Virus record (IMG/VR): IMGVR_UViG_3300022200_000031
Span: 1-64,000 of that record
DNA length: 64,000 bases
Source of the DNA: a virus
Reading direction: 5' to 3' (one strand)
The notes below the pieces were generated by a model that worked only from the letters and a program-made list of their open reading frames with translations, was not told where the DNA came from and did not search any database. The position numbers were made by a program, and so were the translations under genes. Below, in pieces: positions 21,279 through 64,000 of this stretch (positions are counted from its first letter, which is position 1; each line of letters starts with the position of its first letter).

Positions 21279-21316
21279 TTTTACAGAGCACATTATAACA
21301 ACTTTCGTGTGTTCTC

Positions 21317-21623: not shown

Positions 21624-21626
21624 CAC

Positions 21627-21700: not shown

Positions 21701-21709
21701 TTTAACAAT

Positions 21710-21784
21710 GTCGTGATAGTGTAATTGGCAGCACAATAGTCTCCAAAACTATTAGTTGAGGTTCGAATCCTTGTCGCGGCGCCA
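21710..21784 (+). tRNA. tRNA-Trp(CCA)
   Basis: ATAGT-CTCCAAA-ACTAT; GGTTCGAATCC; GCCA end. Confidence 0.92.
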
Positions 21785-48759: not shown

Positions 48760-48971
48760 TAGATCATAAGATGATCCCTGTTGAAGATCATCCAAATCTT
48801 TTCAGGGATCCAGTTACAAATGCGATTATAAATATGGATACAAGATCTGCTGCGTCTAACAGAAATGCTAGAATGAAAGCAAAGCAACGCGATGAGGACA
48901 TTGAAAACCTCAAGAATGATATGGCAGAAATTAAAGAATTATTGACCCAACTTTTAGCGAGTAAGAACTAA
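48756..48971 (+). CDS. small coiled-coil conserved protein
   Basis: L.RD..T.AIIN, EIKELL. Confidence 0.7.
   Translation: MIDHKMIPVEDHPNLFRDPVTNAIINMDTRSAASNRNARMKAKQRDEDIENLKNDMAEIKELLTQLLASKN
48827..48834 (+). promoter_or_regulatory. late promoter upstream of the fibre and modification island
   Basis: TATAAATA. Confidence 0.65.
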
Positions 48972-51886
48972 TGGCAATTGTTATCGTACCAAACACAGAC
49001 ACTTTTAACCAATGGCGTGTAAAGACAAACACCATTGGTTCAGGTGTTGGTGACCTTTCTACTCTGATCAATGATGCTGTTCTAACATATACAGGTCTTA
49101 CTGGCCAGAATGAAGGAACATTCACTGGTACGCCTGCCACATTCACAATTGTGAATAATCAGGGTACATATGAAGTAACCGTTACCAATGGTGGTGATGG
49201 ATACGCAGTTGGTGATACTGTGTTGATCACCGGTGGCCAGATCGGTGGTGTTGATGGTGTAAATGATGCAACGATCACTGTTGCGACTGTTGACGCACTT
49301 GGAGTTGGTGAGGTACAGACTGCTACTGTAGCTGGTACAACCACCGCTAACCTCGTTGCACAGGTAAACAACCTTAGAGATGATGTGGGTGACACCAACA
49401 CTGCACTACAAACTAATGCTGCTCAGGTACGCGATGCGATTAACGAATTTGAAGAAGTATTGAGAGGTGCTGGTGCCAATAACTACACCCTCAACACAGA
49501 TGCTGACAACTTGGTTGCTGCTATCAATGAGCTGGAAACAGCAGTTCGTGGCACTAATATAGATTACAACCTTGATACCACATCTAATGATTTGGTATCT
49601 GCAATCAATGAATTCCAAGCTGAGTTGGGTCTGGTAGAGAGTTTTGATGCCACAGGCACTTCTCCTATTGCGGACGCTAATCACACAATTACGTACGTTA
49701 ATATTGGATCGACGTTCGAGGCCGCTGTTAATGCACTGAAAGATAAAGTCGACTACCATTCAGATGAACTTGGTGGTAAGATGTCTGCAGACTATGATGG
49801 TCCTGAGACAAACCATATGGATGCGCTGAACGCATTGTACAATGCATCTTCTCTTGGTACCTTGGATAATACATACGTTCGTCGTTCTGGTACTCTTGAC
49901 ATGACTGGTATGTTCCAGCTTCATCAGGATGGTATCACTTCAAACGCAAACAGCATGCTTCTGAAGACTGGTGCTGCTGATGTGACTGCTATTACAATCA
50001 GTGCAACAAATCAAAATGTTGGTATTGGCGGTGGTGTTGGCACACAGAAGTTAAAGGTTACTGGTGGTGTTAATGCTACCACTGGTTTCTATTATAATGG
50101 AGATGATACAGACACCCGTTATATCCGTGCTGATGTTGGCTCTGCACAGACCCTTGAAATTGATACGACGGTTACTGCATCCATTAATCTCGATCCTGGT
50201 GCAGGTGAAACAGTAACAATTGATGGTTCAATTGTTGCTAGTGATAGCTATACTTTCCTTGAATGGTTCCAGGACACAGTTGGTGATATGTTTACCGGTA
50301 ACCAGGAGTCTGGTGGTATCAGTGGTGTATACAATGATGGTACTGGCAAGATCACTCTTGCAATTGCAGATGATGGCCACAACCACGTCGTAAGTAATAT
50401 TGATGATTTCGATAACGAAGTTAAGGATCGTGCTGCAGCAATGATCACAGGTGCTACTCACTCTGGTCTTGCTACAACATACGATAATGTAAATAATCGC
50501 CTCACATTCAATGTCAATGACCCTGTTCTAACTATCTCTGGTGAAGCAACTGGTTCAGCCACAATGACTAACCTTAGTAACACCACTATTAGTGTTACCC
50601 TGGATCAGGAAGTCATTCAGGACAAAGCAGCACCATTACTGTCTAATGGTGTTCATACTGGTCTGTCTGCTACTTATGATGATGCAAACAACCGTATCAA
50701 TCTTGCATTGACTGCTGACCCAACTATTGCACTTTCTGGTGATGTATCAGGTTCGGTAACCCTTACCAACCTTGGTACCCAGACATTTACAATTAATGCT
50801 GTAGTTGCTGATGATAGCCACAATCACGTTATTGGTAATATTGACAACTTCACTGAAGAAGTACAAGACATTGTTGGTGCCATGGTTGCTCCAACAAACG
50901 TTGAATCTGGTATTACTGTAACATACGATGACAATACTGGTAAGTTGAACTTTGATGTTAATGATCCTACCATTACATTGAATGGGGATGTAACGGGTTC
51001 TGCTACAATGTCGAACCTTGGTTCAATGACCATCACTACTACTATCGTCAACGATTCACACACCCATGATGATCGTTACTATACAGAATCGGAAGCAGAT
51101 AGTCGCTTCTTTAATGTGTCTGGTGACACTATCACTGGTAGCTGCACTGTGCAGGGTGATATTTACCTGGGTTCAGGTGCTTCATCCTCGCTCCAACATT
51201 TCTGGGACAATAACAGTAGCACCTGGCGTACATTCCAATACGATCAGAGCAACTGGTATGTTGAAGATGATGGCGGCACAAACCGTCTGTTGGTTCATGC
51301 TGGTAACCTAGGTTCATTTACATTCCCATCTGCATCAAACGCGAACACCCTTGATGGTATTGACTCCTCACAGTTCCTGCGTTCAGATGCAAATGACACT
51401 GCAACCGGTAACCTAACCACTTCTCACTTATATGCTAGATCCAATGGTGCATATGATCTTGGTACAGGTACAGTAAGATATCGTACAATGTATGCTGGTA
51501 CATTTAACGGTACAGCAACCACCGCACAATACGCTGACTTGGCAGAGAAATACCTTGCTGATGGTGAATATGTTGCCGGTACTGTTATTGCGGTAGGTGG
51601 TGAAGCTGAAGTGACTGCCGCCACGGACGAAATTGCCCATTCAGTGATTGGTGTTGTATCAGAGAATCCAGCATTCCGAATGAATGAAGATCTCGAGAAT
51701 GGTACCTACATTGCACTGAAGGGACGTGTTCCTGTCCGCGTACAGGGAGATGTTAAGAAGGGGGACCGTTTGGTTGCCTCATCAACTCCAGGTGTAGCTG
51801 AAGCAAATAATGCTATGGGAATGTGGTCATTTGCTGTTGCCTTAACAGACAAAGTAGGGGATACTGTAGAAGCTGTTATTCTTTAA
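48971..51886 (+). CDS. tail/neck fibre with repeats, HxH motifs and C-terminal peptidase G2-type autocleaving chaperone
   Basis: TDTFNQWRVKTN start; LVAAINE repeats; HNH/HTH doublets; ADLAEKY...IGVVS.NP...GRVPV..KGD. Confidence 0.82.
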   Translation: MAIVIVPNTDTFNQWRVKTNTIGSGVGDLSTLINDAVLTYTGLTGQNEGTFTGTPATFTIVNNQGTYEVTVTNGGDGYAVGDTVLITGGQIGGVDGVNDATITVATVDALGVGEVQTATVAGTTTANLVAQVNNLRDDVGDTNTALQTNAAQVRDAINEFEEVLRGAGANNYTLNTDADNLVAAINELETAVRGTNIDYNLDTTSNDLVSAINEFQAELGLVESFDATGTSPIADANHTITYVNIGSTFEAAVNALKDKVDYHSDELGGKMSADYDGPETNHMDALNALYNASSLGTLDNTYVRRSGTLDMTGMFQLHQDGITSNANSMLLKTGAADVTAITISATNQNVGIGGGVGTQKLKVTGGVNATTGFYYNGDDTDTRYIRADVGSAQTLEIDTTVTASINLDPGAGETVTIDGSIVASDSYTFLEWFQDTVGDMFTGNQESGGISGVYNDGTGKITLAIADDGHNHVVSNIDDFDNEVKDRAAAMITGATHSGLATTYDNVNNRLTFNVNDPVLTISGEATGSATMTNLSNTTISVTLDQEVIQDKAAPLLSNGVHTGLSATYDDANNRINLALTADPTIALSGDVSGSVTLTNLGTQTFTINAVVADDSHNHVIGNIDNFTEEVQDIVGAMVAPTNVESGITVTYDDNTGKLNFDVNDPTITLNGDVTGSATMSNLGSMTITTTIVNDSHTHDDRYYTESEADSRFFNVSGDTITGSCTVQGDIYLGSGASSSLQHFWDNNSSTWRTFQYDQSNWYVEDDGGTNRLLVHAGNLGSFTFPSASNANTLDGIDSSQFLRSDANDTATGNLTTSHLYARSNGAYDLGTGTVRYRTMYAGTFNGTATTAQYADLAEKYLADGEYVAGTVIAVGGEAEVTAATDEIAHSVIGVVSENPAFRMNEDLENGTYIALKGRVPVRVQGDVKKGDRLVASSTPGVAEANNAMGMWSFAVALTDKVGDTVEAVIL

Positions 51887-51895
51887 GGAGCTTCT

Positions 51896-52645
51896 ATGAT
51901 TGGTATTGTTGGTTATGGATTTGTGGGTAAGGCTGTCGAATACGGCTTTAGCAAAACAGATCATTTTATTGTCGACCCCCTACATTTTCCAGAACACTCT
52001 CTAGCTGATCTAGTTGAGCACAATCCCGAAGCGATCTTTGTGTGTGTTCCTACTGATGATGGGGATCAGTTTGCTACATTAACTGATACTCTTGATCAGA
52101 TTGCAGGTCTAGGCTACAAGGGTATTGTAGTAGTCAAATCTACTGTTCTTCCAAAGTACCTTGAGGGGTACAATGTTGTCTACAATCCTGAGTTTCTTTC
52201 TCGCCGTACTGCATTTGAAGATTTTGTAAAACCACACGTCTTAGTGATTGGTGGCCAGCAATCTAAAGCAAAGCGTGTATTGGAAATGTATATGAACTAC
52301 TCTGATGTTCGTTGTGATAACATCTTCCTCACTTCAGTTAATGCTGCCTCAATGGTTAAATATATGTTCAACACATACTATGCAACCAAACTAACCTTCA
52401 TGAATCAGATGTATGATGTGGCGCAGCAGGCTGGTGTACATTGGAATGATATCAAACAGATTCTTGGAAAACATCCATGGGTAGGAACATATCATCTTGA
52501 TGTCCCTGGTTATGAGGGGCGAGGTTTTAGTGGTCCATGTCTTCCCAAGGATACAAAAGCCCTTGCTGCTGAATATGATGTTGAATTGCTACATAAGGTG
52601 TTGGAGTTAAACGACAAATACCGAGATGAAAACTCTACTAGTTGA
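51896..52645 (+). CDS. ugd: UDP-glucose/GDP-mannose dehydrogenase family, lacking the C-terminal domain
   Basis: GYGFVG, CVPT, KSTV, NPEFL, GFSGPCLPKD. Confidence 0.88.
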   Translation: MIGIVGYGFVGKAVEYGFSKTDHFIVDPLHFPEHSLADLVEHNPEAIFVCVPTDDGDQFATLTDTLDQIAGLGYKGIVVVKSTVLPKYLEGYNVVYNPEFLSRRTAFEDFVKPHVLVIGGQQSKAKRVLEMYMNYSDVRCDNIFLTSVNAASMVKYMFNTYYATKLTFMNQMYDVAQQAGVHWNDIKQILGKHPWVGTYHLDVPGYEGRGFSGPCLPKDTKALAAEYDVELLHKVLELNDKYRDENSTS

Positions 52646-53630
52646 ACTTTCAGAACAATGCAATCTCGATTGCTCGTACTGTGGTGTAAACAAAAGATCA
52701 AAACAGAAAGTAAATCTTGATCATGTTCTCGAGCAGTATAGTCTCCTGCGTTCAAAATACCCCGACGAGAAAATAAAGATAGACTTCTTCGGTGGTGAAC
52801 CTTTGTTGCAGCTTGATAGAATTAAGTCTATTATTGAGGCTACAGAGAACGACCCCAATCTTGAATATTTTATGCCAACTAATGGTCTTGTTTTAACACA
52901 AGAAATGGCGGATTATCTGATATCAAAGAATGTAAGAATGTCACTATCGTTTGATGGACTCTGGCAGGACGACAACCGAAAGCAATTATCCGGTAACGGC
53001 ACTCTCACCAAGTATATGGCAAAGAGTGATCTATTTAAGTCTCTCCCACTAGAATGTCATACTATGATCACTAGGGGAAACTATAATCTTCTTGAAAACC
53101 ACCTTTTTATCCAGGACTTAATCGGAAAAAATTCCGATCAAACGCTTGTCCGTGACAGAAATATATGGGATAATGACAGTGTAGATAAACTAAAGGCTGG
53201 TATCACTGAGTTGTTTGAGTGGTATAAAAGACATCCAGAAAAAGAGATGCCGGGGTTGATTAAACATTACCTTAGCCATATAGTAAGGTATAAGTATAAG
53301 AAGGTAGAGCTGAATACCTGTGGTGCTGGTGAGAAGATGATCACCGTTGCAGACGAAGACAAGGTTCTTCCCTGCGGTAGGTTTAGAAACGAACCAGACA
53401 CTATTGCTAGTATTCCTATCTACACAAAAATGTCTGAGTGTGAGACATGCGAAGTGAGACACTACTGTAAGAAGGGGTGTCTGTATGAACAGATACACAA
53501 CGGTGGACCTATTAAGGAGCTGTGTGACATCTACAAGCATATCTACTCAGAAGAATTTAATATGATCAAACAGTTGAAGAATGATCAGCACTTTGTAGGT
53601 GTATTGAAAAAGGAAATTATGGATGCTTGA
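52626..53630 (+). CDS. radical SAM/SPASM protein (peptide maturase / anSME-like)
   Basis: CNLDCSYC, FFGGEP, TNG, SFDG; CGAG..PC and CETC..YCKKGC. Confidence 0.9.
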   Translation: MKTLLVELSEQCNLDCSYCGVNKRSKQKVNLDHVLEQYSLLRSKYPDEKIKIDFFGGEPLLQLDRIKSIIEATENDPNLEYFMPTNGLVLTQEMADYLISKNVRMSLSFDGLWQDDNRKQLSGNGTLTKYMAKSDLFKSLPLECHTMITRGNYNLLENHLFIQDLIGKNSDQTLVRDRNIWDNDSVDKLKAGITELFEWYKRHPEKEMPGLIKHYLSHIVRYKYKKVELNTCGAGEKMITVADEDKVLPCGRFRNEPDTIASIPIYTKMSECETCEVRHYCKKGCLYEQIHNGGPIKELCDIYKHIYSEEFNMIKQLKNDQHFVGVLKKEIMDA

Positions 53631-53841
53631 TGATAAAGACAAAGCGAATGCATCGTTGTTTAATGCTGCTGCCCATCTAACAGAGGCAGCAAAGTATATG
53701 TCTGACATGGATAAGGGGATCTCACTAAAGATCTTTGCCATGGCAGATAAGATCCTTTCCATTATTGATGCCCCCCAACCAAAGTTATCAAATAAAGAAC
53801 TGGATGATATTCTGGAGGAGATTCTAAATGCAGAAGACTAG
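53623..53841 (+). CDS. small helical hypothetical protein in the rSAM cluster
   Basis: Overlaps both flanking rSAM genes. Confidence 0.6.
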   Translation: MLDDKDKANASLFNAAAHLTEAAKYMSDMDKGISLKIFAMADKILSIIDAPQPKLSNKELDDILEEILNAED

Positions 53842-54964
53842 AGGACCGCTGGTAATTGAGCTGACTACCAGTGCATTATGTGATCTGAATTGCACATATT
53901 GCTTTGAGGGTGAGAAGGTTAACAAGCAGAGGCTTGAGGACTTTGACACACTGTATGCTAGGATTGATGAACTAACTAGTGACCCATGGTTTAAAGAAAA
54001 CTACAATGGATTCACATTCTCATTTTGGGGCGGTGAACCGACACTTAACCACGAGTATATTGTCAAAGTAATCAATCACTTCAAGGACCATCCTGCAGTA
54101 GGTCAGTTTCATATCTACACCAATGGTTTCAACTTCAAGAATATGAGTCGAATTATTGATAATGTAGACACAACCAAACTGCATATTCAAGTTTCATATG
54201 ACGGTCAAATTACTAATGATATTTTCAGATTGACGAACAAAGGAACCTCCACAACTGAACAAGTACTAAATACCTTTGACAAATTGGCCAAAAGAGGTAT
54301 TGATCTTGCAATAAAGAGTACACTACCCACTACTTCTATTTTTAGTCTGTATGATACATGGCTAGAATTTGAAGGTTTGGTTAATAAATATAAGGATTAC
54401 CCAAACGTAAAAATTAACTTTGCGCCAACGATTGAGTATGCTATGGGACACACACCATTTGGTGGGGAAACGGATCATGCAGTTGCAAAGTTTGAAAAGC
54501 AGATGAAAAAGATCGCCAAAAAGGAGATCGAATTCTACAAGGAGCATGGAAGGTTCTTGTGCTCATGGTTTGGTAGCTCTGATAGTAAGACAAACTGTAC
54601 TGCTGGAGCTAGTATGATGGCAGTAGATGTGGACGGTGGAGTGTATGCTTGCCATGGTGCTCTCTACTCTCCTCAGAAGGAAGACATGAAATCAGCAACG
54701 ATTTTCGATAATGATTTCACTGTTAAGGTAAAAGACTTTGCGGACAAGCATGTTCCTGCAAGGCATAGGATTAATGACATCTGTAAGGGATGTGTTGCAA
54801 CATACTGTGCTGTATGCCCTGTTGCGGTATATGACGCAAGTAAGAAGGTTGACCATCTAGATAGATGGACAGATAGATGTGTGAATGGGTTGTGTAAGTT
54901 CTATAAGGCGTTTGGGCGATTAGATAGAGCTGTACAGCACCATATAAACAACTTGGAGAAGTGA
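53828..54964 (+). CDS. radical SAM/SPASM protein
   Basis: CDLNCTYC, FWGGEP, TNG, SYDG; CTAG..ACH and CKGC..YCAVCP..C. Confidence 0.9.
   Translation: MQKTRGPLVIELTTSALCDLNCTYCFEGEKVNKQRLEDFDTLYARIDELTSDPWFKENYNGFTFSFWGGEPTLNHEYIVKVINHFKDHPAVGQFHIYTNGFNFKNMSRIIDNVDTTKLHIQVSYDGQITNDIFRLTNKGTSTTEQVLNTFDKLAKRGIDLAIKSTLPTTSIFSLYDTWLEFEGLVNKYKDYPNVKINFAPTIEYAMGHTPFGGETDHAVAKFEKQMKKIAKKEIEFYKEHGRFLCSWFGSSDSKTNCTAGASMMAVDVDGGVYACHGALYSPQKEDMKSATIFDNDFTVKVKDFADKHVPARHRINDICKGCVATYCAVCPVAVYDASKKVDHLDRWTDRCVNGLCKFYKAFGRLDRAVQHHINNLEK
54943..54950 (+). promoter_or_regulatory. late promoter variant TATAAACA
   Basis: One mismatch from consensus, 16 nt upstream of ATG 54966, GGAG RBS between. Confidence 0.4.
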
Positions 54965-54965
54965 T

Positions 54966-55652
54966 ATGACAGTAGGTGTAGTTGACGCTGGTGATAATTG
55001 TACAGCAGCACATTGTATCAATCATGGTACAGGTACCACCACGTGTGTTGAACACCGCAGTACATGCTCAACCAACCGTGCATTGACATTCTCTGACTTT
55101 GCTCAGGGTGGCAACATTACTGCTACCCAGGTAGAGGAAATGAGAGTCAAGATTCGTGATGAGTTGGCTAGATACAACCTTCATGCTAACTACAACTACA
55201 CATTGTACCAGCCAACAGCTATTGGTGCTGGTGGTATTGTGGATGACACTCACTATAACAACCTGAATGATATGATCCGTCAGGCCTACGGTTCCGATAT
55301 CAATAAGGCTGCGGGTCAGCTGATTGATGATGCAGATTGGGATAACTTGATCTCATACTATAATGTGGTTCGCCAAAACTGCATCTGTAACACCGACTGC
55401 TCATGTAATAATGTGTGTGCGTGCCACAATGATTGTGATTGTAACTACAGCGATGAAAGACTGAAGGAGAATATTAAGTATCTTGGTCTGGTAAGTGATC
55501 TGAAAGTGTACAGCTTCAATTATATCTGGAACAAAGCAGAAGAGATGATTGGTGTGATGGCTCAGGATCTCATTGGTACCAAGTATGAGGATGCTCTTCG
55601 TAAAGACATTAACGGATACTACATGGTAGATTATAGTAGGTTGCCACTCTAA
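54966..55652 (+). CDS. Cys-rich fibre-like protein with peptidase S74 intramolecular chaperone; candidate rSAM substrate
   Basis: CICNTDCSCNNVCACHNDCDCNY followed by SDERLKENI..Y.FNY.W..GVMAQD..GYYMVDYS. Confidence 0.8.
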   Translation: MTVGVVDAGDNCTAAHCINHGTGTTTCVEHRSTCSTNRALTFSDFAQGGNITATQVEEMRVKIRDELARYNLHANYNYTLYQPTAIGAGGIVDDTHYNNLNDMIRQAYGSDINKAAGQLIDDADWDNLISYYNVVRQNCICNTDCSCNNVCACHNDCDCNYSDERLKENIKYLGLVSDLKVYSFNYIWNKAEEMIGVMAQDLIGTKYEDALRKDINGYYMVDYSRLPL

Positions 55653-56398
55653 TGGAAAAGACAATTACTAAAATCAATGAGGTTCTGTCTGAAAAGTTTG
55701 ACAGAGGTATCTCAATCAGAGTCACCAACACTCTCAGTATTCCTCCAATGGATGATGATAGTCAGTTCTCCATTAAATTTAAGTTTACTGTAAATGGTGC
55801 TGGGTACCGTGGATGGTATCTATCCAACACCGATCGTGCTGAGATAAATGAATTTGTGTATGACACCCTGCACGATGATGTGTTTGTTCTGCCTAATCTA
55901 GTGGACTTTGATGGTAAGTGTTATGCCTTGGTTGGTGATGGTATGATTACTGTTGAGCGTGAAACTAAGGTTCTTATGACCAACGATGTAGCGCCATCCT
56001 CAATTGTAGAGCTGCATGAAATGCTTGAGGACATTGATGTGTCGTCTATTGATATGTCGGATGTATATGACAGACAGGTTGGTTACAACTTCAGTGATGA
56101 AGAATGTATGCTGATGTATACCAACATCCCTGGTAATGTTCTCAGTGATGGTAGCGGTCGTTATACACTAATTGACTTAGATGTATTTAATATTCTCCCA
56201 ACGCGTTTCAAATATTGTCCTGCATTCTCTCTTCTATGTGATAGGATTGGTTTTAAGCAGTCTCGCCTTGAGGGATTCTGCGATAAGTATAATCTGGACC
56301 CTGAGATGTTCCTTTCCAACTACAAGCAGTTTCTTCAATTTGAGAAGGACATGGGTTCTGATGATGAAAAAATGATGGAGATTTTAACGGAGAAATAA
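55652..56398 (+). CDS. hypothetical protein, possible degenerate kinase-like fold
   Basis: TNIPGNVL...YTLIDLD. Confidence 0.5.
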   Translation: MEKTITKINEVLSEKFDRGISIRVTNTLSIPPMDDDSQFSIKFKFTVNGAGYRGWYLSNTDRAEINEFVYDTLHDDVFVLPNLVDFDGKCYALVGDGMITVERETKVLMTNDVAPSSIVELHEMLEDIDVSSIDMSDVYDRQVGYNFSDEECMLMYTNIPGNVLSDGSGRYTLIDLDVFNILPTRFKYCPAFSLLCDRIGFKQSRLEGFCDKYNLDPEMFLSNYKQFLQFEKDMGSDDEKMMEILTEK

Positions 56399-56400
56399 TT

Positions 56401-57003
56401 ATGATGGTATATGATTTAGCTATTGTGGAGGACCATGGTCACCACTATAGAGTGATTGGTACAACAAAGAATACATTAGACCGTATGGCCGGTGAAGACT
56501 ATATTAAAGTGTCATCGATGGCGTATGAAATGATTTGGCCTGCATTGCGAGATGGTAAGGAAGTAAGACTTCCTAAGGTTCTCCATACCAATGAAGTACT
56601 TCCCGGTGAAGTACAAATTATCGAACATAGTCCTGATGATGCAGATGCAGCACGCACTGCAGCACTGATCAAGGTACGCTCGCTTGTTGTCCCAGAGATG
56701 ACTAAAGAGTCAGGATTCACTCTTTATAACTTCATGATGATGAATAATGAGTTGGCAAGTGAAGGATACTTCATTACTAATAATAATCGTGAAGAAAAGT
56801 ACATTGAGATCATCGAAACAGGCAATGAAAGGCTAATTGAAACCCTTGAGATGTACCTAGAAGCTAAGGATACCCTTGACCGGGCGGCCTCAATGAAAGT
56901 TCGGTTGGATAAGTTCCGTAAAGAAATCGGCCGAATGGATGCTGTAGATGATATTAAGACGGCTACCGACAATTTCTTGGCTACATTCTATACCTCAAAG
57001 TAA
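56401..57003 (+). CDS. hypothetical protein in the rSAM cluster
   Basis: GGAG RBS; full-length ORF in the operon. Confidence 0.65.
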   Translation: MMVYDLAIVEDHGHHYRVIGTTKNTLDRMAGEDYIKVSSMAYEMIWPALRDGKEVRLPKVLHTNEVLPGEVQIIEHSPDDADAARTAALIKVRSLVVPEMTKESGFTLYNFMMMNNELASEGYFITNNNREEKYIEIIETGNERLIETLEMYLEAKDTLDRAASMKVRLDKFRKEIGRMDAVDDIKTATDNFLATFYTSK

Positions 57004-57008
57004 TATGA

Positions 57009-57824
57009 ATGTCCGCTGTTGTATATCACTCAAACGATCATAAGAAGATCAATGGTACTCTCTTCTATTGTTTTGAGTACTATGTACTGCTAAAAAGATA
57101 CATTCCAGGCCTGCAGTATATCCTTCTCAATACTTCCGATGAAGATCTTCAATGGATGAAATCTATCTTTATTGAGAAGTATAACTTTGATCATGCTTAT
57201 CTTAATGACATCACTAACCTAACAAGGCTTACAGATTTTGTTAGGTTGTCGGTTGATAATGTTCTAATCCTTGATATTCATACTTATAGTAGAGTAAAGG
57301 ACTTTCTCGGAAAGGCTCGATCAGTTCGTGTGTATAGTAATGAGGAGCACAACTACCTGAACGCTAAACCCCATCATGTGTTCTATGGGTTCTACGACTA
57401 TCAGACATTCAATAAAAAAACTAGAATCAAATTATATGCTGACATACACAAGAGGTTTCCTAATAAAAGAAACAAAGTGTTTGTTACGTCATTAAATGCA
57501 GACAATGATTATATTGTCAATCAGTTAGGATTAGATCCATCGAAGGTATTTGTAAAAAATCTAAACAGTCACAATGAGAATATGTATGAACAGGTTGGTG
57601 AGATGATCTACTGGCATAGTTCACATACAGATACAAATAACCGAGCAATAGTGGAGGCATACATCCATGATATTCCTCTGACCATACACTTCAATGGACA
57701 CTATCATGATAGCATCTATGAGAGATCTAACACCATTGCTAATGGTGGTTTGCAGGAAATGTTTCTTGATCAGTCTGATATACTAATACAGGACTTCATT
57801 AATGATTGTACAAATACCAAGTAA
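57009..57824 (+). CDS. divergent GT-B glycosyltransferase-like protein
   Basis: DTNNRAIVEAYIHDIPL resembles the EX7E motif; NGTLFYCFEYY shared with the next gene. Confidence 0.5.
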   Translation: MSAVVYHSNDHKKINGTLFYCFEYYVLLKRYIPGLQYILLNTSDEDLQWMKSIFIEKYNFDHAYLNDITNLTRLTDFVRLSVDNVLILDIHTYSRVKDFLGKARSVRVYSNEEHNYLNAKPHHVFYGFYDYQTFNKKTRIKLYADIHKRFPNKRNKVFVTSLNADNDYIVNQLGLDPSKVFVKNLNSHNENMYEQVGEMIYWHSSHTDTNNRAIVEAYIHDIPLTIHFNGHYHDSIYERSNTIANGGLQEMFLDQSDILIQDFINDCTNTK

Positions 57825-58701
57825 GTATGAGCTCTGCCTAACCTACTCTTGGGGTCCTATCGATCAGGGTATGTGTGGACACATATTTGAGTGTATTGAA
57901 TACTACTTCATTCTGAAAGAACATTACAGTGTGTGTATATTCATTCCTGAGCCACTCAGCAAGAAGTTCATAGAGGATACTGTTAGGGACAAGTATGATT
58001 TCACAGAAGAGGAAACAACGGACCTTTTCGATAATACTATCTTTGGCAATCATCCTAAGATTCTGAAGGGAAGTAATGTACTGTTAACGGATGCTGGGTT
58101 TGGAAAGATGACTAACAGACATCTATTGTTTGATAACATCATGGCTTTTCCATGCGCCGATATGTCATTCAAACAAATGGAAGGTATTACTGTATTCCAG
58201 GATGACCGCATGTATGGTACGGATGCCAAATGCACAACCCATCACTATGTAAAAAAGATTCTACTAGATCGTTATAAGACAATTGGTGATAGTGTTATTG
58301 ATACTAACCTTGTATATGCTACTAAGAATGCAAGAGGGCTTGATGAGTCCATCTACACAGAGTTGGAGCAGTACCCAGGAAACTTTCTGCTGTTGACTAA
58401 TACAGAGATTAAGGGTATACTATCCGATCGTTATACACAGGAAGAGATGCCTGTGAAGAATCTATTTGAGAAGTTTAGTACATACATCTATACTCCTGTA
58501 GGAAAGAAGTATGATTGCAGTCCTAGATTCTTGGTAGAATGCAAGCACTATGGTAAAAATGTTATATTCCATAACATTGACTATTGGGATGTTGATCATG
58601 GTTTGAAGTGGAGAGTCTATGACATCGAGTACGATTATGATTCACTACTTCTTAGATCGGATGATAGTATCATAGAATTAATAGGAGACATCATTGGATA
58701 A
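57802..58701 (+). CDS. divergent GT-B glycosyltransferase-like protein
   Basis: DCSPRFLVECKHYGKNV; CGHIFECIEYY. Confidence 0.5.
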   Translation: MIVQIPSKYELCLTYSWGPIDQGMCGHIFECIEYYFILKEHYSVCIFIPEPLSKKFIEDTVRDKYDFTEEETTDLFDNTIFGNHPKILKGSNVLLTDAGFGKMTNRHLLFDNIMAFPCADMSFKQMEGITVFQDDRMYGTDAKCTTHHYVKKILLDRYKTIGDSVIDTNLVYATKNARGLDESIYTELEQYPGNFLLLTNTEIKGILSDRYTQEEMPVKNLFEKFSTYIYTPVGKKYDCSPRFLVECKHYGKNVIFHNIDYWDVDHGLKWRVYDIEYDYDSLLLRSDDSIIELIGDIIG

Positions 58702-59296
58702 TTATTGTCTCACTGTAACATATAAATGTCAGTGGCATTGCCCATACTGCATTACTGATACACACTCTAAGAGTATAGAGTATGATCAGGTACTAGACAA
58801 CATTAAAAGGATACCCGATCGTGCTCATGTCTCCCTTAGTGGCGGAGAACCTGGTATGTTACCAACAGGAAAGATCATAGAGGTTATTAATAGACTGCGT
58901 GAGAAGCAATGTGTGGTACAGGTTAATAGCAATGGGTTGATTTTTAAAAGACCCGCTATTGTTGATATGGTGGACTTCATCTTCTACCATTGCAGTGAGA
59001 ACCTGGATATTGATGATGAGGTTGTAAAGGATTACCCTGATAAGACTCAGTACATGGTAGTTGTAACAGACAACAACATTGATAAACTCAGATCATTTTT
59101 GGATAAGCATAATGATATTCATATATCAATTTATGCAGCTAAAGAGGTCCCTGTCAATGGTAAGGTTGGCGAACATCTCAGTAAAAAGAACGCTATCAGA
59201 CTCGTGCGTGAGTTTAAGGATTACATCAAACCAGATGAGGTTCCACACATCCTAAATTTCAATGAGTATACTTTGCAGACAGAACACATTAAATGA
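58694..59296 (+). CDS. short radical SAM protein
   Basis: CQWHCPYC, SGGEP, SNG. Confidence 0.88.
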   Translation: MDNYCLTVTYKCQWHCPYCITDTHSKSIEYDQVLDNIKRIPDRAHVSLSGGEPGMLPTGKIIEVINRLREKQCVVQVNSNGLIFKRPAIVDMVDFIFYHCSENLDIDDEVVKDYPDKTQYMVVVTDNNIDKLRSFLDKHNDIHISIYAAKEVPVNGKVGEHLSKKNAIRLVREFKDYIKPDEVPHILNFNEYTLQTEHIK

Positions 59297-60297
59297 TTAA
59301 TAATTATACATTTCCTTTAATTGATAAAGATGAACCTATATGTCAGCGCGCTAAACTTGACACAGGGACTTTCTGTAATTATGAGTGTTCTTTTTGTTAC
59401 TATATTGATCGCCTGCATGAGAAGACAGATCTGGATGTGGTAAAACAGCGTGTGGATTATATCTATGAATGTGGTATCCGCGAAGTAGATCTTAGTGGGG
59501 GTGAATCTTCTGTCCGTACTGATTGGTTTGAGCTGCTGGACTATTGTAAGTCAAAGGAAATGTCAGTCAGTACGGTGACTAACGGATACAAGTTTGCTGA
59601 CCATGATTTTATGAAAAAGTCAAAGGAGCATGGATTGCAGGAGATTCTGTTTAGTGTACATGGGCCCAATAATGACATCCATGATCTTGTAGTTGGAAGA
59701 AAAGGAGCATTTAAGCGAATCATTAAAGCAATTGAGAATGCCCATGATCTAGGAATACTGGTTCGTATCAATTATGTTGTTAATCAACATAGCTACAGTC
59801 TAACAGATGAGTTTGTGTGCATGGTTGATCAGGTGAAGCCATATGAACTGAACTTTCTCACACTAAACTTCTTTGGTTCCGCTAACGAGTATCTACCATA
59901 CAAACTGTCTACTACTCATATCAAACACTGCATTGATATTGTTGACGTTCCTATTATTAATGTAAGGTATGTACCATATTGCTATATGGAAGGGTACGAG
60001 AAGTATGTCTGCAACACGTTCCAGCATATCTATGACAGATACGATTGGAATATGGCAGTGTATGATCAAAGAATAGATCCGGAAGTGTATAAAAAAGATC
60101 CTCTGGATGCATTATATAAGCAAGCGCAGGAAGACCGTAAGCGCATGTACTATAAACCAGAACAATGCAAGGGATGTAAGCATCTCCTAATATGTGATGG
60201 GTTGGAGAATGTAGTTCATGATGATGTAATGCCAACAGAAGGACCAGTGGTGAAGGAGATCAATCACTACAGGAAGGAATACTATGCCAAAGTATAG
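59293..60297 (+). CDS. radical SAM protein with C-terminal CxxCx5C
   Basis: CNYECSFC, SGGE, TNG, SVHG; CKGCKHLLICDG. Confidence 0.9.
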   Translation: MINNYTFPLIDKDEPICQRAKLDTGTFCNYECSFCYYIDRLHEKTDLDVVKQRVDYIYECGIREVDLSGGESSVRTDWFELLDYCKSKEMSVSTVTNGYKFADHDFMKKSKEHGLQEILFSVHGPNNDIHDLVVGRKGAFKRIIKAIENAHDLGILVRINYVVNQHSYSLTDEFVCMVDQVKPYELNFLTLNFFGSANEYLPYKLSTTHIKHCIDIVDVPIINVRYVPYCYMEGYEKYVCNTFQHIYDRYDWNMAVYDQRIDPEVYKKDPLDALYKQAQEDRKRMYYKPEQCKGCKHLLICDGLENVVHDDVMPTEGPVVKEINHYRKEYYAKV

Positions 60298-60910
60298 TAT
60301 TCTAATTCCCACTCATAATAGACCTGAACTGTTTCAGAGATGTATTGCCAGTGTACAGAGAGGTATGCTTGGTGCTGACTACGAGATTATAGTTAATAAT
60401 GATTCACGAGATATTGAGGAAGTAGAAAGATATAACATTAAGTACTACTACATGCGCAATGATAATCTTGGTATGATATACAAGTTTCTATTTGATAGAG
60501 CAAACGGTGAGTATGTGTACTACATGGAAGATGATGATATTATGGATCCAAACTTCTATGAGCGCATTAAGTTATTCAACGAGGATATTATGTTTGGCAA
60601 CTATGTTCCTTTTGAATGGAATAAGTCATTCATTGAGTATATGAGATCAAGACCACAATCATCAAAGGAAGATTTCCTGGAAACATTTGATCCACACCAT
60701 TTCCAACTGTGCCAGATTATGTTTCGGAAATCTGCATTGGCAGACGCTGATTTTCCTACCGACAACAACCTACAGAATGATTTCCTTTTATTTGAGAGAC
60801 TGCAGGGTTCGTTTAGAGTAGTAAACAACTTCTTCTATAAACAAACAATTGATGGTGGTGATAATATTAGCTTCAGCTACCTCAATAAGGATCCAAGATG
60901 GACTTCATAA
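60284..60910 (+). CDS. GT2 (GT-A) glycosyltransferase
   Basis: SILIPTHNR, IIVNND, GEYV.YMEDDD. Confidence 0.85.
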   Translation: MPKYSILIPTHNRPELFQRCIASVQRGMLGADYEIIVNNDSRDIEEVERYNIKYYYMRNDNLGMIYKFLFDRANGEYVYYMEDDDIMDPNFYERIKLFNEDIMFGNYVPFEWNKSFIEYMRSRPQSSKEDFLETFDPHHFQLCQIMFRKSALADADFPTDNNLQNDFLLFERLQGSFRVVNNFFYKQTIDGGDNISFSYLNKDPRWTS

Positions 60911-61818
60911 AGGTATCTGGTGTAGATCATTATGAACAGAGATTGTATGTTCATTGGGATGTAACTACTATTTGTGAGTACAAATGTTCCTACTGTTATG
61001 CTCGCAAACAATACAAGGATCAATGGAATCGTCCTGGAAACTGGGAGGATCACAAATACATTATTGACGAGTTGAGTAAGAGTACACTCCCTGTGTTTCT
61101 TGGTCTCCTTGGTGGAGAACCAACATCCCATCAGAGATACTTTACTTTACTTGATATGATTAATGAGAAAGTACTAACTCATCCAGACTCCAGAATGTAT
61201 ATTACAACCAATGGAGCCAAGAGTACAGAGTTCTTTGATAAGCATAAGACATCTAACGGTAAAACTTATTTCCTTTGGAGTCTCCACCCTGAGTATGCAG
61301 ACTTCGATACATTCTATAACAATGTTCAATTGATGAACAGCAAAGGATACAAAACAAAGATAAATTTGATGCTTCATCCTGGCAAAAGATACTGGGAAAG
61401 ACAAAAGGAATGGTATTATCAGCTATCGGAGCTCCACTATGCTATACTACATCCTCATTTCATCTATCATGGGTTTGATAAGGATGTGAAGTATACAGAT
61501 GAATTCTTTGAGGAGTTTAACTTCCTACAGGATCAGAGAATAAAGGAATTTGTGTTTGAGGATAGTGTAGGAGAGAGTTATATACTTTCCGACTATGAGA
61601 TATTCAAGGGTGGGCATAACCAGTTCAAGGGCTGGCAGTGTTGGCATAATAATTTCGAGATTAGGAATGATGGGTTGATATCCGATCAATGTTTTGATAG
61701 GCAGGGTAGACAAATCACAAAGGACTTCTTTAAGAATATTACAGAGATCGTACCCAGAGTATGTCCACACAACTATTGTAGCTGTGATGGCCTAATGAAG
61801 ATTAGGAAAGAAAAATGA
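60898..61818 (+). CDS. radical SAM protein
   Basis: CEYKCSYC, LGGEP, TTNG, SLHP; C-terminal CPHNYCSC. Confidence 0.9.
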   Translation: MDFIKVSGVDHYEQRLYVHWDVTTICEYKCSYCYARKQYKDQWNRPGNWEDHKYIIDELSKSTLPVFLGLLGGEPTSHQRYFTLLDMINEKVLTHPDSRMYITTNGAKSTEFFDKHKTSNGKTYFLWSLHPEYADFDTFYNNVQLMNSKGYKTKINLMLHPGKRYWERQKEWYYQLSELHYAILHPHFIYHGFDKDVKYTDEFFEEFNFLQDQRIKEFVFEDSVGESYILSDYEIFKGGHNQFKGWQCWHNNFEIRNDGLISDQCFDRQGRQITKDFFKNITEIVPRVCPHNYCSCDGLMKIRKEK

Positions 61819-63622: not shown

Positions 63623-64000
63623 TGCTAGAATGGGAATGCATCCTAGAGTGCAACTACAAGTGCTCATATTGCTGTAGGTTTAATGGACCGGCTGGTGTGA
63701 CTGGTCCTATACGATACGAGAAGGATAAGGAGAAGGTTTTTGCTTTCCTTAGTAATCTGAAAGAAAAGTATCCAGACTCAGAGTTGTTTGTCTTTGGTGG
63801 GGAACCTTTCGTTCATCCATTCATTGAGGATATTGTTGCTCATCTTAATAGAATACAGATGCCATTTGTTATACAATCTAATTTCACATTATATGAAAGG
63901 ATGTATAATCTACTAAAGAAGGAAAACTATCCCCTACAGATATCTCTTCATCCAGATGATATACAGGATGAGGAAGAGATGCTCAGACAGCTGGCAGTGT
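63619..64000 (+). CDS. radical SAM protein (3'-truncated, not in ORF track)
   Basis: MMLEWECILECNYKCSYCC...FGGEPF...SLHP, open to the window end. Confidence 0.85.
   Translation, partial: MMLEWECILECNYKCSYCCRFNGPAGVTGPIRYEKDKEKVFAFLSNLKEKYPDSELFVFGGEPFVHPFIEDIVAHLNRIQMPFVIQSNFTLYERMYNLLKKENYPLQISLHPDDIQDEEEMLRQLAV

What the first reader, a model, noticed from the sequence alone, without database searches (positions are those of the whole stretch)
52626..57003. Candidate phage RiPP-like system: two rSAM/SPASM maturases beside a (CxCxxx)4 protein fused to an S74 self-cleaving chaperone
Seen: two SPASM-type radical SAM genes and a 72-aa spacer gene are followed directly by a 228-aa ORF. That ORF has four N-terminal Cys and three G-x-x-I/V...N/E-L repeats (GGNITATQVEEM, GGIVDDTHYNNL, GQLIDDADWDNL). 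It then carries CIC-NTD-CSC-NNV-CAC-HND-CDC-NY (55380-55448) immediately before SDERLK. Established: SDxxxK is the Ser/Lys autocleavage site of peptidase S74 chaperones, which trimerise fibres and spikes and then cut themselves off. rSAM/SPASM enzymes such as CteB and PapB cross-link Cys sulfur to Asp/Asn/Thr carbons in ranthipeptides. Inference: the mature product is a trimeric virion appendage ending in an Asn/Asp/Thr-interleaved Cys array that the neighbouring enzymes cross-link. The S74 domain would take the place of the usual leader peptide and peptidase. I know of no characterised system that joins RiPP chemistry to a virion fibre.
Basis: partly seen in the sequence, partly recalled or inferred. 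Interest (0 to 1): 0.92.

Follow-up and report, generated by a model that had tools for sequence, protein, structure and literature searches.

The report
Radical-SAM cassette for cysteine-array phage protein
An uncultured T4-like water phage encodes, just after its tail-fibre gene, a small self-cleaving protein that ends in eight strictly conserved cysteines; its gene always lies next to two iron-sulfur "radical SAM" enzymes of the cysteine-stapling kind, so the phage probably modifies one of its own particle proteins chemically, which no paper I found describes.

Summary
All four ORFs exist at the stated coordinates. Both enzymes have the CxxxCxxC radical-SAM motif and a conserved seven-Cys SPASM motif. 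The 228-aa protein carries (CxCNxx)4 at residues 139-161, directly before an S74 Ser162/Lys167 site.

The array is invariant in relatives that are only 35-55% identical overall. In non-redundant related loci with enough flank, all 30 array genes have SPASM radical-SAM genes directly upstream. None of 19 array-less S74 proteins does. The reverse search holds for 21 of 23 loci.

The unit is larger than reported. A conserved core adds a small acidic helper (the "72-aa spacer"), p200, one or two GT-B glycosyltransferase-like proteins and further radical-SAM genes, probably in one late operon with the fibre gene. ORF 55652-56398 is a non-conserved insertion.

New here: cultured Campylobacter phages (CPt10, CP220, IBB_35) carry a heptad-array homologue near an rSAM2 homologue. 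Published virion proteomics lists that protein (2.6% coverage).

The chemistry (thioether cross-links), the trimer and the virion location of this protein remain inferred. This scan has flagged the same kind of system on other DNA. I found no paper describing it.

The parts
48827..48834 (+). T4-type late promoter motif TATAAATA, 137 bp upstream of the fibre gene
   Evidence: 9 matches in the window against 3.5 expected, and at least five lie just upstream of + strand ORF starts. There is none inside 48971-64000, where genes abut or overlap. Inference: one late operon.
48971..51886 (+). Tail fibre protein (971 aa) with three HxH motifs (GHNHV, SHNHV, SHTHD)
   Evidence: PHROG hits to the long tail fibre distal subunit. 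HxH lies at residues 470, 617 and 697. The protein has only 1 Cys in 971 residues.
51896..52645 (+). Short nucleotide-sugar dehydrogenase-like protein (249 aa, no C-terminal domain)
   Evidence: Pfam UDPG_MGDP_dh central and N domains. It matches positions 76-298 of the 413-position NCBIfam model. A homologue is present upstream in 19 of 30 related loci.
52626..53630 (+). rSAM1: radical SAM/SPASM enzyme without an RRE
   Evidence: Radical_SAM at 54.2 bits. Best NCBIfam hit is PapB at 113.7 bits (cut-off 340), then QhpD at 85.5 bits. CteB (5WGG) at E 1e-15, with the match starting at CteB residue 97. C12/16/19 and seven SPASM Cys are conserved.
53623..53841 (+). s72: small acidic helical helper protein, no Cys
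   Evidence: Conserved between the two enzymes in 12 of 15 hexad-class loci. Weak homology to CP220 gp020, pairwise E 1e-5, in the same neighbourhood. No Pfam RRE/PqqD hit.
53828..54964 (+). rSAM2: radical SAM/SPASM enzyme without an RRE
   Evidence: Radical_SAM at 45.7 bits. PapB at 87.4 bits and CXXX-repeat maturase TIGR04115 at 63.6 bits. 30% identity and E 7e-50 to the rSAM of Campylobacter phage IBB_35 gene 3-5. The invariant Cys pattern is shown.
54943..54950 (+). Near-consensus late promoter TATAAACA, 16 nt before the ATG (weak)
   Evidence: The count in the window is at chance level (4 against 3.5), so this is only a lead.
54966..55652 (+). Precursor of the cysteine-array protein (228 aa)
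   Evidence: More than 150 homologues found. 78 clusters at 50% identity match at E<=1e-30. It has 12 Cys, whereas the large structural proteins nearby have almost none.
54999..55067 (+). N-terminal Cys/His cluster (C12, C17, C27, C34)
   Evidence: Consensus MACxGxxCxxxxTGTTTCxxHRxxCSTNR in the hexad class. It is absent from most heptad-class members. AF2 gives it low confidence.
55098..55376 (+). Helical middle domain (three strand-plus-helix repeats)
   Evidence: In the AF2 model this part has pLDDT about 78-93 and helices at 53-70, 94-108 and 122-137. No informative structural match was found.
55380..55448 (+). (CxCNxx)4 cysteine array, residues 139-161
   Evidence: Invariant columns in alignment A1. 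DNA read. Not a tandem DNA repeat. AF2 pLDDT is about 40.
55449..55649 (+). S74 intramolecular chaperone with Ser162/Lys167 autocleavage dyad
   Evidence: PF13884 at 31.8 bits against a cut-off of 22. S162 and K167 are invariant. AF2 confidence is high here.
55652..56398 (+). p248: non-conserved insertion, not part of the system
   Evidence: Found in 0 of 38 non-redundant related loci. No family hit.
56401..57003 (+). p200: conserved partner of unknown function, no Cys
   Evidence: Lies directly downstream of the array gene (or of its split chaperone ORF) in 37 of 38 loci. Matches phrog_25260. The Atlas search gave no reliable fold.
57009..57824 (+). p271: conserved in the hexad class; possibly related to p299
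   Evidence: Present in 19 of 19 hexad loci and 1 of 19 heptad loci. One ORF in L061 matches both p271 (4e-12) and p299 (6e-5).
57802..58701 (+). p299: GT-B-fold glycosyltransferase-like protein
   Evidence: AF2 pLDDT 92.6 and pTM 0.90. Nearly all listed Foldseek hits are GT-B glycosyltransferases, such as BshA, 8xsg, PimA and HMW1C/NGT, best E 4e-4. Present in 37 of 38 loci.
58694..59296 (+). rSAM3: small radical SAM protein (200 aa)
   Evidence: Pfam Radical_SAM. Weak HxsC and NrdG hits. Present as 2-5 paralogues in most hexad-class loci with enough downstream sequence.
59293..60297 (+). rSAM4: radical SAM protein (334 aa), core member
   Evidence: Radical_SAM at 77.3 bits. MoaA, HxsC, NirJ and BlsE-like hits, all far below their cut-offs. 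Present in 36 of 38 loci.
60284..60910 (+). GT2 glycosyltransferase (208 aa)
   Evidence: PF00535 at 56.8 bits. Present in 15 of 19 heptad-class loci and 1 of 19 hexad-class loci.
60898..63622 (+). Three further radical SAM paralogues (306, 297 and 305 aa)
   Evidence: Pfam Radical_SAM and Fer4_12. Only weak, non-specific NCBIfam hits.

Best explanation
This is a phage-encoded protein-maturation cassette that is probably expressed late together with the tail-fibre gene.

The 228-aa precursor has an ordinary C-terminal S74 chaperone. By analogy with characterised S74 proteins, that domain trimerises the protein and then cuts itself off between Tyr161 and Ser162. The 161-residue mature chain would then end in the (CxCNxx)4 array, giving 24 Cys per trimer end.

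The two RRE-less SPASM radical-SAM enzymes encoded directly upstream act on that array. Most probably they join Cys sulfur to carbon atoms of neighbouring residues, giving sactionine- or ranthionine-type thioethers. Asn, Asp and Thr are the candidate acceptors. The result would be redox-inert staples in a protein that must survive outside the cell.

The small acidic helper s72 probably substitutes for the missing substrate-recognition domain. p200, the GT-B-like proteins p271 and p299, and rSAM4 belong to the same conserved unit and probably add further steps, possibly glycosylation.

Shown: the gene content, the motifs, the conservation and the strict two-way gene linkage. Inferred: the trimer, the cleavage, the thioether chemistry, the order of events, the virion location and the roles of the helper proteins.
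For: (1) Family assignment. Both enzymes have the radical-SAM motif and a conserved seven-Cys SPASM motif. Their best NCBIfam hits are Cys-thioether maturases: PapB for both, then QhpD for rSAM1 and the CXXX-repeat maturase for rSAM2. The closest solved structure is CteB.

(2) Linkage. In non-redundant loci with enough flank, 20 of 20 hexad arrays have two such genes upstream, and 18 of 18 heptad arrays have two or three. None of 19 S74 proteins without an array has any.

(3) Reverse test. 21 of 23 loci with strong rSAM2 relatives have a Cys-repeat ORF within 6 kb. About half of the weaker relatives sit near other Cys-repeat proteins.

(4) No other candidate substrate. The genes abut or overlap, so there is no room for a small precursor gene. 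The array protein is the only Cys-rich non-enzyme in the island; the fibre has 1 Cys in 971 residues.

(5) Selection acts on the peptide. The array is invariant at 35-55% overall identity and is not a DNA repeat.

(6) Precedent. SPASM radical-SAM enzymes install thioethers on whole proteins, as CrpC does on CrpA (PMC13692751).

(7) Particle protein. The gene lies in the fibre module of a T4-like phage, downstream of a late-promoter motif. The heptad-array homologue of Campylobacter phage IBB_35 (gene 3-9) is on the published list of virion proteins (PMC3322345). Its neighbour, gene 3-5, is an rSAM2 homologue at E 7e-50.
Against: There is no chemical evidence of any kind. Both enzymes score far below every curated family cut-off: 114 and 87 bits against 340 for PapB. 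The reaction therefore cannot be read off from family membership. anSME-like and other chemistries score in the same range for rSAM2.

The linked loci are related phages that inherited one cassette. The counts are therefore not independent events; effectively there are two clades plus the Campylobacter phages.

CxC motifs spaced like this also resemble metal-thiolate ligands, and this phage's own fibre uses HxH motifs. AF2 gives the array low confidence.

The virion evidence comes from another phage, at 2.6% sequence coverage, for a protein without S74. The island holds at least five further radical-SAM genes and sugar enzymes whose substrates are unknown, so the two SPASM enzymes could in principle serve another pathway.
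Confidence: 0.55

Rival explanations
1. Same substrate, different chemistry. The SPASM enzymes act on the array but do not make Cys-to-carbon thioethers. Possibilities include oxidation of Cys to formylglycine or dehydroalanine (anSME-like), Cys-Tyr or Cys-His links, C-C cross-links, epimerisation, or preparing Cys or Asn for glycosylation by the conserved GT-B or GT2 proteins (S- or N-linked sugars).
For: rSAM2 aligns over its full length to the anaerobic sulfatase maturase model, residues 13-362 against model positions 6-349 of 363. All curated thioether families are missed by a wide margin. GT-B-like p299 is as tightly linked as the enzymes, in 37 of 38 loci. A GT2 and a sugar-dehydrogenase-like gene are also present. 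Asn follows the second Cys in most repeat units of both classes, and N-x-C and N-Y-S sequon-like triplets occur.
Against: The highest-scoring models for both enzymes are thioether formers. The anSME recognition motif (C/S-x-P/A-x-R; my own knowledge) is absent from the array. GT-B is a generic fold, and nothing ties p299 to this protein rather than to the fibre or to a host glycan.
Confidence: 0.2
2. A structural cysteine ladder without enzymatic modification. The CxC pairs point into the trimer axis and bind metal ions, as HxH motifs do in T4 gp37 and gp12, or they form interchain disulfides. The neighbouring radical-SAM enzymes then work on something else, such as a sugar nucleotide, the long fibre or a host molecule.
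For: CxC spacing places both thiols on one face of a strand (reasoning from the sequence). The adjacent fibre uses HxH motifs. The island is rich in sugar-related and non-SPASM radical-SAM genes whose substrates are unknown. Metallothionein-like Cys spacing (my own knowledge).
Against: This reading does not explain why SPASM-type enzymes are found upstream of every array gene and of none of 19 array-less S74 proteins. It does not explain why strong rSAM2 relatives almost always have a Cys-repeat neighbour. It does not explain why the number of SPASM genes tracks the array type. No metallothionein or metal-binding family hit was found.
Confidence: 0.15
3. Not a virion part. The matured, cleaved product could be an intracellular or released effector, a large RiPP-like product (for example against competitors or host defences) that merely borrows an S74 module for folding and release.
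For: The protein is small (161 aa mature). No search found the array on a long fibre of more than 400 aa with S74. No fold match to known fibre domains was found. The virion evidence is indirect.
Against: The gene lies directly after the fibre gene, probably in one late operon. The S74 part matches PHROG families annotated as virion structural and DNA-ejection proteins. The Campylobacter phage homologue was reported in particles.
Confidence: 0.12

Closest known systems
CrpC/CrpA of Methanococcus voltae (SPASM radical SAM enzyme installing ranthionine cross-links on a Cys-rich protein; PMC13692751)
   Same: A SPASM radical-SAM enzyme is encoded next to a whole protein, not a short peptide, with repeated Cys motifs near its C-terminus. 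A second small partner protein lies in the cluster. The enzymes are closer to PapB-type than to sactipeptide enzymes.
   Different: CrpC has an N-terminal RRE, and the phage enzymes have none. The CrpA repeat is 17 residues with C-x-x-Q/D, whereas here it is 6 residues with CxCN. CrpA has no S74 domain and no phage or fibre context. Family TIGR04463 is not among the 25 best NCBIfam hits shown. The chemistry here is untested.
PapB/PapA (freyrasin) ranthipeptide system, NCBIfam NF047865
   Same: It is the best-scoring curated model for both enzymes. It has several Cys per substrate, with Asp or Glu acceptors C-terminal to each Cys (PMC12373016).
   Different: The scores are 114 and 87 bits against a cut-off of 340, so these enzymes are not members. 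The substrate is a 228-aa protein with an autoproteolytic chaperone rather than a leader-core peptide. There are two or three enzymes per substrate.
CteB/CteA (SCIFF thioether synthase; PDB 5WGG, 5WHY)
   Same: It is the closest solved structure by sequence, at E 1e-15 and 1e-6. It has the same radical-SAM plus SPASM architecture.
   Different: The matches start at CteB residue 97-103, so the RRE domain is missing. The TIGR03974 scores are 62 and 47 bits against a cut-off of 425.
QhpD/QhpC of quinohaemoprotein amine dehydrogenase (TIGR03906)
   Same: It is the second-best model for rSAM1. It is a precedent for a radical-SAM enzyme that cross-links Cys to Asp or Glu inside a small protein subunit (my own knowledge).
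   Different: The score is 85.5 bits against a cut-off of 453. There is no CTQ or dehydrogenase context.
C-terminal intramolecular chaperone (Peptidase_S74) of endosialidases, T5 L-shaped fibre and related fibres
   Same: The Pfam hit is above the cut-off, the Ser-x4-Lys dyad is invariant, and the domain lies at the extreme C-terminus of a protein in a tail-fibre module.
   Different: Here it follows a Cys array rather than the triple beta-helix or coiled coil seen in characterised S74 fibres (my own knowledge). In 7 of 63 relatives the gene stops about 10 residues after the cleavage motif, and in four inspected loci the rest of the chaperone is a separate ORF.
Firehammervirus Campylobacter phages (CP220, CPt10, IBB_35): 11-12 unexplained radical SAM genes (PMC2853527, PMC3322345)
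   Same: They have homologues of rSAM1 (27% identity, next to a sugar dehydrogenase and an s72-like gene) and of rSAM2 (30% identity, E 7e-50). They also have a 534-aa protein with seven CTCDCNY units 2.3 kb from the rSAM2 homologue.
   Different: The array lies in the middle of a larger protein and is followed by dispersed CxC motifs, with no S74. The genes are scattered rather than in one cassette.

Membership tests
Radical SAM superfamily (PF04055) | CxxxCxxC cluster motif and a Pfam score above the gathering cut-off | tested here: met
   rSAM1 scores 54.2 bits and rSAM2 45.7 bits against 29.5. C12/16/19 and C18/22/25 are conserved in 39 of 42 and 62 of 63 relatives.
SPASM domain (PF13186) | Seven-Cys motif for two auxiliary 4Fe-4S clusters (C-x9-15-G-x4-C ... 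CxxCx5Cx3C ... C) | tested here: met
   rSAM1 has C232, C250, C272, C275, C281, C285 and C300, conserved in 38-42 of 42 relatives. rSAM2 has C257, C275, C319, C322, C327, C330 and C356, with spacing CxxCx4CxxC, invariant in alignment A3.
SPASM domain (PF13186) | Pfam model score above the gathering cut-off | tested here: inconclusive
   rSAM2 scores 14.1 bits against 21.5. rSAM1 has no hit at E<=0.1. The motif is present but the model is not reached.
PapB-family ranthipeptide maturase (NF047865) | Score above the curated equivalog cut-off (340 bits) | tested here: not met
   113.7 and 87.4 bits. It is the best hit, but these enzymes are not members.
SCIFF maturase CteB type (TIGR03974) | Curated cut-off of 425 bits and an N-terminal RRE domain | tested here: not met
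   62.5 and 47.2 bits. The alignment to 5WGG starts at residue 97-103, and the radical-SAM motif starts at residue 12 or 18 of the phage enzymes.
QhpD (TIGR03906) | Curated cut-off of 453 bits | tested here: not met
   85.5 bits for rSAM1 and 45.7 bits for rSAM2.
CrpC family (TIGR04463) | Match to the family model | tested here: inconclusive
   The family is not among the 25 best NCBIfam rows shown for either enzyme. Lower rows were not displayed.
Peptidase_S74 intramolecular chaperone (PF13884) | Pfam score above the cut-off | tested here: met
   31.8 bits against 22, at residues 162-203.
Peptidase_S74 intramolecular chaperone (PF13884) | Catalytic Ser and Lys five residues apart | tested here: met
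   S162 and K167 are invariant in 49 sequences.
Peptidase_S74 intramolecular chaperone (PF13884) | Trimerisation and self-cleavage | not testable with these tools
   This needs expression and SDS-PAGE or MS. The complex-prediction job gave no verdict (see Tried and rejected).
RiPP (leader-core peptide with RRE-dependent maturase) | Short precursor with an N-terminal leader recognised by an RRE domain | tested here: not met
   The precursor has 228 aa and a folded helical domain. The enzymes have no RRE. s72 has no PqqD/RRE hit. The system is RiPP-like in logic only.
GT-B glycosyltransferases (p299) | Two Rossmann-like domains matching solved GT-B enzymes | tested here: met
   The AF2 model has pLDDT 92.6. 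Nearly all listed Foldseek hits are GT-B enzymes, best E 4e-4 and TM 0.44-0.52. There is no Pfam or NCBIfam hit, and activity is untested.

The most novel reading that the evidence does not exclude
Phages cross-link the free C-terminal end of a trimeric particle protein enzymatically. Position-specific SPASM radical-SAM enzymes, about one per cysteine position in the repeat (two for CxCNxx, three for CTCNCNY), would build a ladder of thioether staples. GT-B enzymes may add sugars. This would be the first enzyme-installed covalent cross-linking of a virion appendage. It would also explain the radical-SAM gene expansions in Campylobacter T4-like phages, unexplained since 2010.
Probability: 0.4. 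Interest if true: 0.9.

Novelty: new variant of a known kind. Interest (0 to 1): 0.8.

Why it matters
If the inference holds, RiPP-type radical chemistry is used on a phage structural protein rather than on a secreted peptide. That would add a new kind of virion maturation step. It would provide a large, diverse set of RRE-less SPASM enzymes with protein substrates. It would also give a rationale for the many radical-SAM genes in T4-like phages of aquatic bacteria and of Campylobacter. The system is directly testable, because cultured Campylobacter phages (CP220, CPt10, IBB_35 and others) carry a homologous array protein and enzyme. The window's own proteins can also be co-expressed in E. coli under anaerobic conditions.

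Tried and rejected
- The complex prediction of three copies of the precursor (alignment A1) gave no verdict, score 0.00. It is not used as evidence either way.
- The AF2 monomer model of the precursor gave no informative match with Foldseek/PDB (best E 0.39) or VIA-align wide (best Z 5.5, generic helical bundles). A profile search of PDB sequences found nothing relevant.
- Megablast of the region against phage records found nothing.
- tblastn of the precursor against phage records found only S74-level hits, in Brucella and Microcystis phages. It missed the Campylobacter array proteins, which have no S74; BLAST's low-complexity filter may also have masked the array.
- The single-protein scan of IMG/VR found nothing. 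The alignment-based scans worked.
- The genome-contig scan gave one locus only, a 3.9-kb contig binned as a Thermoplasmata MAG, with an array gene and two radical-SAM genes.
- The search for proteins longer than 400 aa with array plus S74 returned only S74-only proteins.
- The Atlas search for p200 gave no reliable fold; the best row was a tail assembly chaperone at TM 0.29-0.38.
- TRF found no DNA tandem repeat in the array.
- The sigma-70 promoter scan was at chance level (52 against 53.9). Terminator-like sites were 14 against 8.1 expected, and I did not examine them further.
Contexts came from the search for related loci instead.
- I considered and rejected p248 as a system member (0 of 38 loci).
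- I considered and rejected s72 as the substrate (it has no Cys).
- I considered and rejected a hidden small precursor gene (there is no intergenic space).
- 'One enzyme per Cys position' is kept only as a suggestion. The counts (20 of 20 and 17 of 18, with L061 the exception) come from two related clades.

Full report
WHAT IS THERE

The window is the first 64 kb of a 78.8-kb IMG/VR viral contig, estimated at about 46% complete. The phage is T4-like. It has gp6, gp8, gp5 and gp32 domains, class I ribonucleotide reductase and five tRNA genes. By gp6, its nearest cultured relatives are Methylophilales phage Melnitz (42% identity) and the Pelagibacter phages Mosig and HTVC008M.

The ORFs named in the finding exist exactly as described. 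These are rSAM1 (52626-53630), a 72-aa gene (53623-53841), rSAM2 (53828-54964) and a 228-aa gene (54966-55652).

THE ENZYMES

Both enzymes exceed Pfam's Radical_SAM cut-off. Both begin almost directly with CxxxCxxC. Both carry seven further C-terminal cysteines in the SPASM pattern, conserved across 42 and 63 non-redundant relatives.

Their best curated matches are Cys-thioether maturases. PapB is best for both, at 113.7 and 87.4 bits. QhpD follows for rSAM1, and the CXXX-repeat maturase for rSAM2. All are far below the family cut-offs, so these enzymes belong to none of those families.

The closest solved structure is the SCIFF maturase CteB. The alignments start at CteB residue 97-103, which means the phage enzymes lack the N-terminal peptide-recognition (RRE) domain.

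THE ARRAY PROTEIN

The 228-aa protein hits Peptidase_S74 above the cut-off at residues 162-203. The DNA at 55380-55448 encodes CIC NTD CSC NNV CAC HND CDC NY, followed by SDERLK.

In 49 aligned homologues with 35% mean column identity, eight positions of the array plus Y161, S162, D163, L166 and K167 are invariant. The array uses mixed Cys codons and is not a DNA tandem repeat. It is therefore held by selection on the peptide.

It gives low confidence for the N-terminal Cys/His cluster and for the array.

IS THE LINKAGE REAL?

The family is sizeable. There are more than 150 clusters at 90% identity in one search, and 78 clusters at 50% identity at E<=1e-30 in an exhaustive search.

I fetched 61 IMG/VR loci, 80 metagenome loci and one genome locus. 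I annotated them by phmmer with the window's own proteins. The arrays fall into two classes:
- Hexad class, CxCNxx x4, with 8 Cys. The window belongs here.
- Heptad class, CTCNCNY x4 or more, with 12 or more Cys.

After removing near-duplicates, the counts are as follows:
- 20 of 20 hexad genes with at least 2.5 kb upstream have exactly two SPASM radical-SAM genes there.
- 17 of 18 heptad genes with at least 4.5 kb upstream have three, and the other (L061) has two.
- None of 19 S74 proteins without an array has any. One further row, L062, was a split-gene artefact.

The reverse test used a profile of rSAM2 relatives against IMG/VR. Of 23 loci with strong relatives, 21 have a Cys-repeat ORF within 6 kb. 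One of the two exceptions has only 1.9 kb downstream. About half of the weaker relatives sit beside other kinds of Cys-repeat proteins.

These phages are related, however, so the counts are not independent events.

THE REAL UNIT IS LARGER

Gene order is conserved: fibre, short sugar-dehydrogenase-like gene, rSAM1, s72, rSAM2, array protein, p200, p271, p299, rSAM4, then several small rSAM3 paralogues or a GT2 plus further radical-SAM genes.

In non-redundant loci with enough flank, p200 occurs in 37 of 38, p299 in 37 of 38 and rSAM4 in 36 of 38. p271 is found in the hexad class only (19 of 19). GT2 is mainly in the heptad class (15 of 19). The ORF at 55652-56398 occurs in 0 of 38 and is an insertion peculiar to this phage. 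A 402-kb contig carries the same core from rSAM1 through p299, with no dehydrogenase-like gene in the 3.6 kb I examined upstream of its array gene.

p299 gives a confident model (pLDDT 92.6). Nearly all of its listed Foldseek matches are GT-B glycosyltransferases, among them protein glycosyltransferases such as HMW1C/NGT and Gtf3.

The window holds at least seven radical-SAM genes between 52.6 and 63.6 kb. Genes abut or overlap from 48971 onward. A T4-type late promoter motif, TATAAATA, lies 137 bp before the fibre gene, and there is none inside the island. This suggests one late operon. A one-mismatch motif sits 16 nt before the array gene, but such motifs occur at chance frequency.

The array protein is the only Cys-rich non-enzyme in the island. 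The fibre has 1 Cys in 971 residues and the 1801-aa protein has 7.

In 7 of 63 non-redundant members the protein stops about 10 residues after SDxRLK. In the four such loci I inspected with a downstream ORF (L061, L090, L092, L103), an 84-103-aa ORF directly downstream encodes most of the rest of the chaperone; L083 has no such ORF. L062 has the same layout.

In Campylobacter phages the array protein has no S74. S74 is therefore an exchangeable folding and release module. It is not a stand-in for a leader peptide.

The small helper varies in size: 72-87 aa in most hexad-class loci, 101-170 aa in others. It is always acidic and helical. It has a weak homologue in CP220 (gp020, pairwise E 1e-5), which carries a short C-terminal Cys tail and lies between a sugar-dehydrogenase gene and an rSAM1 homologue.

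A CULTURED RELATIVE

One locus from the reverse scan matches Campylobacter phage CPt10 in contig length (175,720 bp), and its gene layout agrees with the CPt10 record. Its gp145 (534 aa, annotated only as a hypothetical protein with 21-bp repeats) contains seven CTCDCNY units preceded by the same kind of helix as the heptad class, with pairwise E 5e-14. It lies 2.3 kb upstream of an rSAM2 homologue.

The homologue in phage vB_CcoM-IBB_35 is gene 3-9 (60,318 Da). It is listed among the 38 proteins identified by ESI-MS/MS in the mature particle, at 2.6% coverage (PMC3322345, supplementary tables). The neighbouring gene 3-5 is 30% identical to the window's rSAM2, with E 7e-50.

The CP220/CPt10 genome paper reported 11-12 radical-SAM genes as highly unusual and offered only a metabolic guess (PMC2853527). 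These phages are a practical test bed.

HOW IT MOST LIKELY WORKS

Shown: the motifs, the conservation and the two-way linkage.

From established knowledge of S74 domains: trimerisation, then self-cleavage at the Ser, leaving the array as the free C-terminus.

From family resemblance and precedent: SPASM radical-SAM enzymes join Cys sulfur to carbon atoms of nearby residues, and they do so on whole proteins as well as peptides (CrpC/CrpA, PMC13692751; PapB, PMC12373016).

Inferred: the two enzymes staple the array. The helper substitutes for the missing RRE. The GT-B proteins and further radical-SAM enzymes add other steps. The product sits on the particle.

I cannot tell whether modification precedes or follows trimerisation and cleavage.

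The match between the number of SPASM genes (2 or 3) and the number of Cys per repeat (2 or 3) hints at one enzyme per Cys position. It rests on two clades and has one exception.

RIVALS

- The same substrate with other chemistry, such as formylglycine, other cross-links or glycosylation.
- A metal- or disulfide-held ladder, with the enzymes serving another pathway.
- A non-virion effector.

The linkage data argue most strongly against the second. The first cannot be separated from the main reading without mass spectrometry.

NOVELTY

Four full-text searches found no paper linking radical-SAM enzymes to a phage structural protein.

Earlier notes of this scan describe the same kind of system on other DNA and on this genome. 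I took two leads from them, the CrpC paper and the TATAAACA motif, and checked both myself.

I class the finding as a new variant of a known kind: protein-level radical-SAM cysteine modification, here in phages and coupled to an S74 module.

TOOL NOTES

The complex prediction returned no verdict.

Noticed in passing
window 50378-50386, 50819-50827, 51059-51067 (in ORF 48971-51886): The 971-aa tail fibre has three HxH motifs in repeated contexts (DDGHNHV, DDSHNHV, NDSHTHD). They resemble the metal-binding HxH motifs of T4 gp37 and gp12 (my own knowledge). The protein has only one Cys.
   Followed up: partly
window 51896-52645: The 'UDP-glucose dehydrogenase' is a short form (249 aa) covering only model positions 76-298 of 413. 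It lacks the C-terminal domain. A homologue is present upstream in 19 of 30 related cassettes, and a short sugar-dehydrogenase gene (256 aa) lies in the corresponding CP220 neighbourhood.
   Followed up: partly
window 55652-56398: This 248-aa ORF lies between the array gene and p200. It has no family hit and no counterpart in 38 related loci, so it is a lineage-specific insertion of unknown function.
   Followed up: partly
L061:9590-10471, L062:9524-10398, L090:2896-3677, L092:5995-6769, L103:5989-6860: Split S74 chaperone. The array protein stops about 10 residues after SDxRLK. An 84-103-aa ORF that abuts, overlaps or lies a few bases downstream encodes most of the rest of the chaperone. It is unknown whether the two act in trans or are joined by frameshifting.
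   Followed up: partly
L221:2068-3672 (Campylobacter phage CPt10 gp145) and L222:4501-6105 (IBB_35 gene 3-9): A 534-aa protein has seven CTCDCNY units followed by about 200 residues with dispersed [VT]CxC[ND] motifs and no S74. It is annotated as hypothetical, or as 'N-acetylneuraminate pyruvate lyase' in CP21. It is reported in IBB_35 virions at 2.6% coverage.
   Followed up: partly
L063:7470-7847 (CP220 gp020): This is a weak homologue of the 72-aa helper (pairwise E 1e-5). It has an extra C-terminal tail, KCDHESCGC, and lies between a sugar-dehydrogenase gene and an rSAM1 homologue. It could itself be a substrate in those phages.
   Followed up: no
L163:9804-12368: One IMG/VR contig carries four tandem paralogous heptad-array genes (190-237 aa) after three SPASM radical-SAM genes.
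   Followed up: no
L017-L025 (for example L017:1502-5854): Relatives of the window's 1801-aa protein (43354-48759) in other phages end in their own S74 domain without a Cys array. The window's copy has no SDxxLK site.
   Followed up: no
L036, L037, L047 (627-aa ORFs): These S74 proteins have six irregularly spaced Cys just before SDERVK and no radical-SAM neighbour. They are a different, probably disulfide-type, Cys-rich end.
   Followed up: no
window 20858-21784: A cluster of five tRNA genes (Arg-TCT, Thr-TGT, Pro-TGG, Gly-TCC, Trp-CCA).
   Followed up: no
L144 (contig JAEHCK010000229.1, binned as a Thermoplasmata MAG): A 3.9-kb contig holds a heptad-type array gene and two SPASM radical-SAM genes. 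It is probably a viral fragment binned with an archaeal MAG.
   Followed up: no
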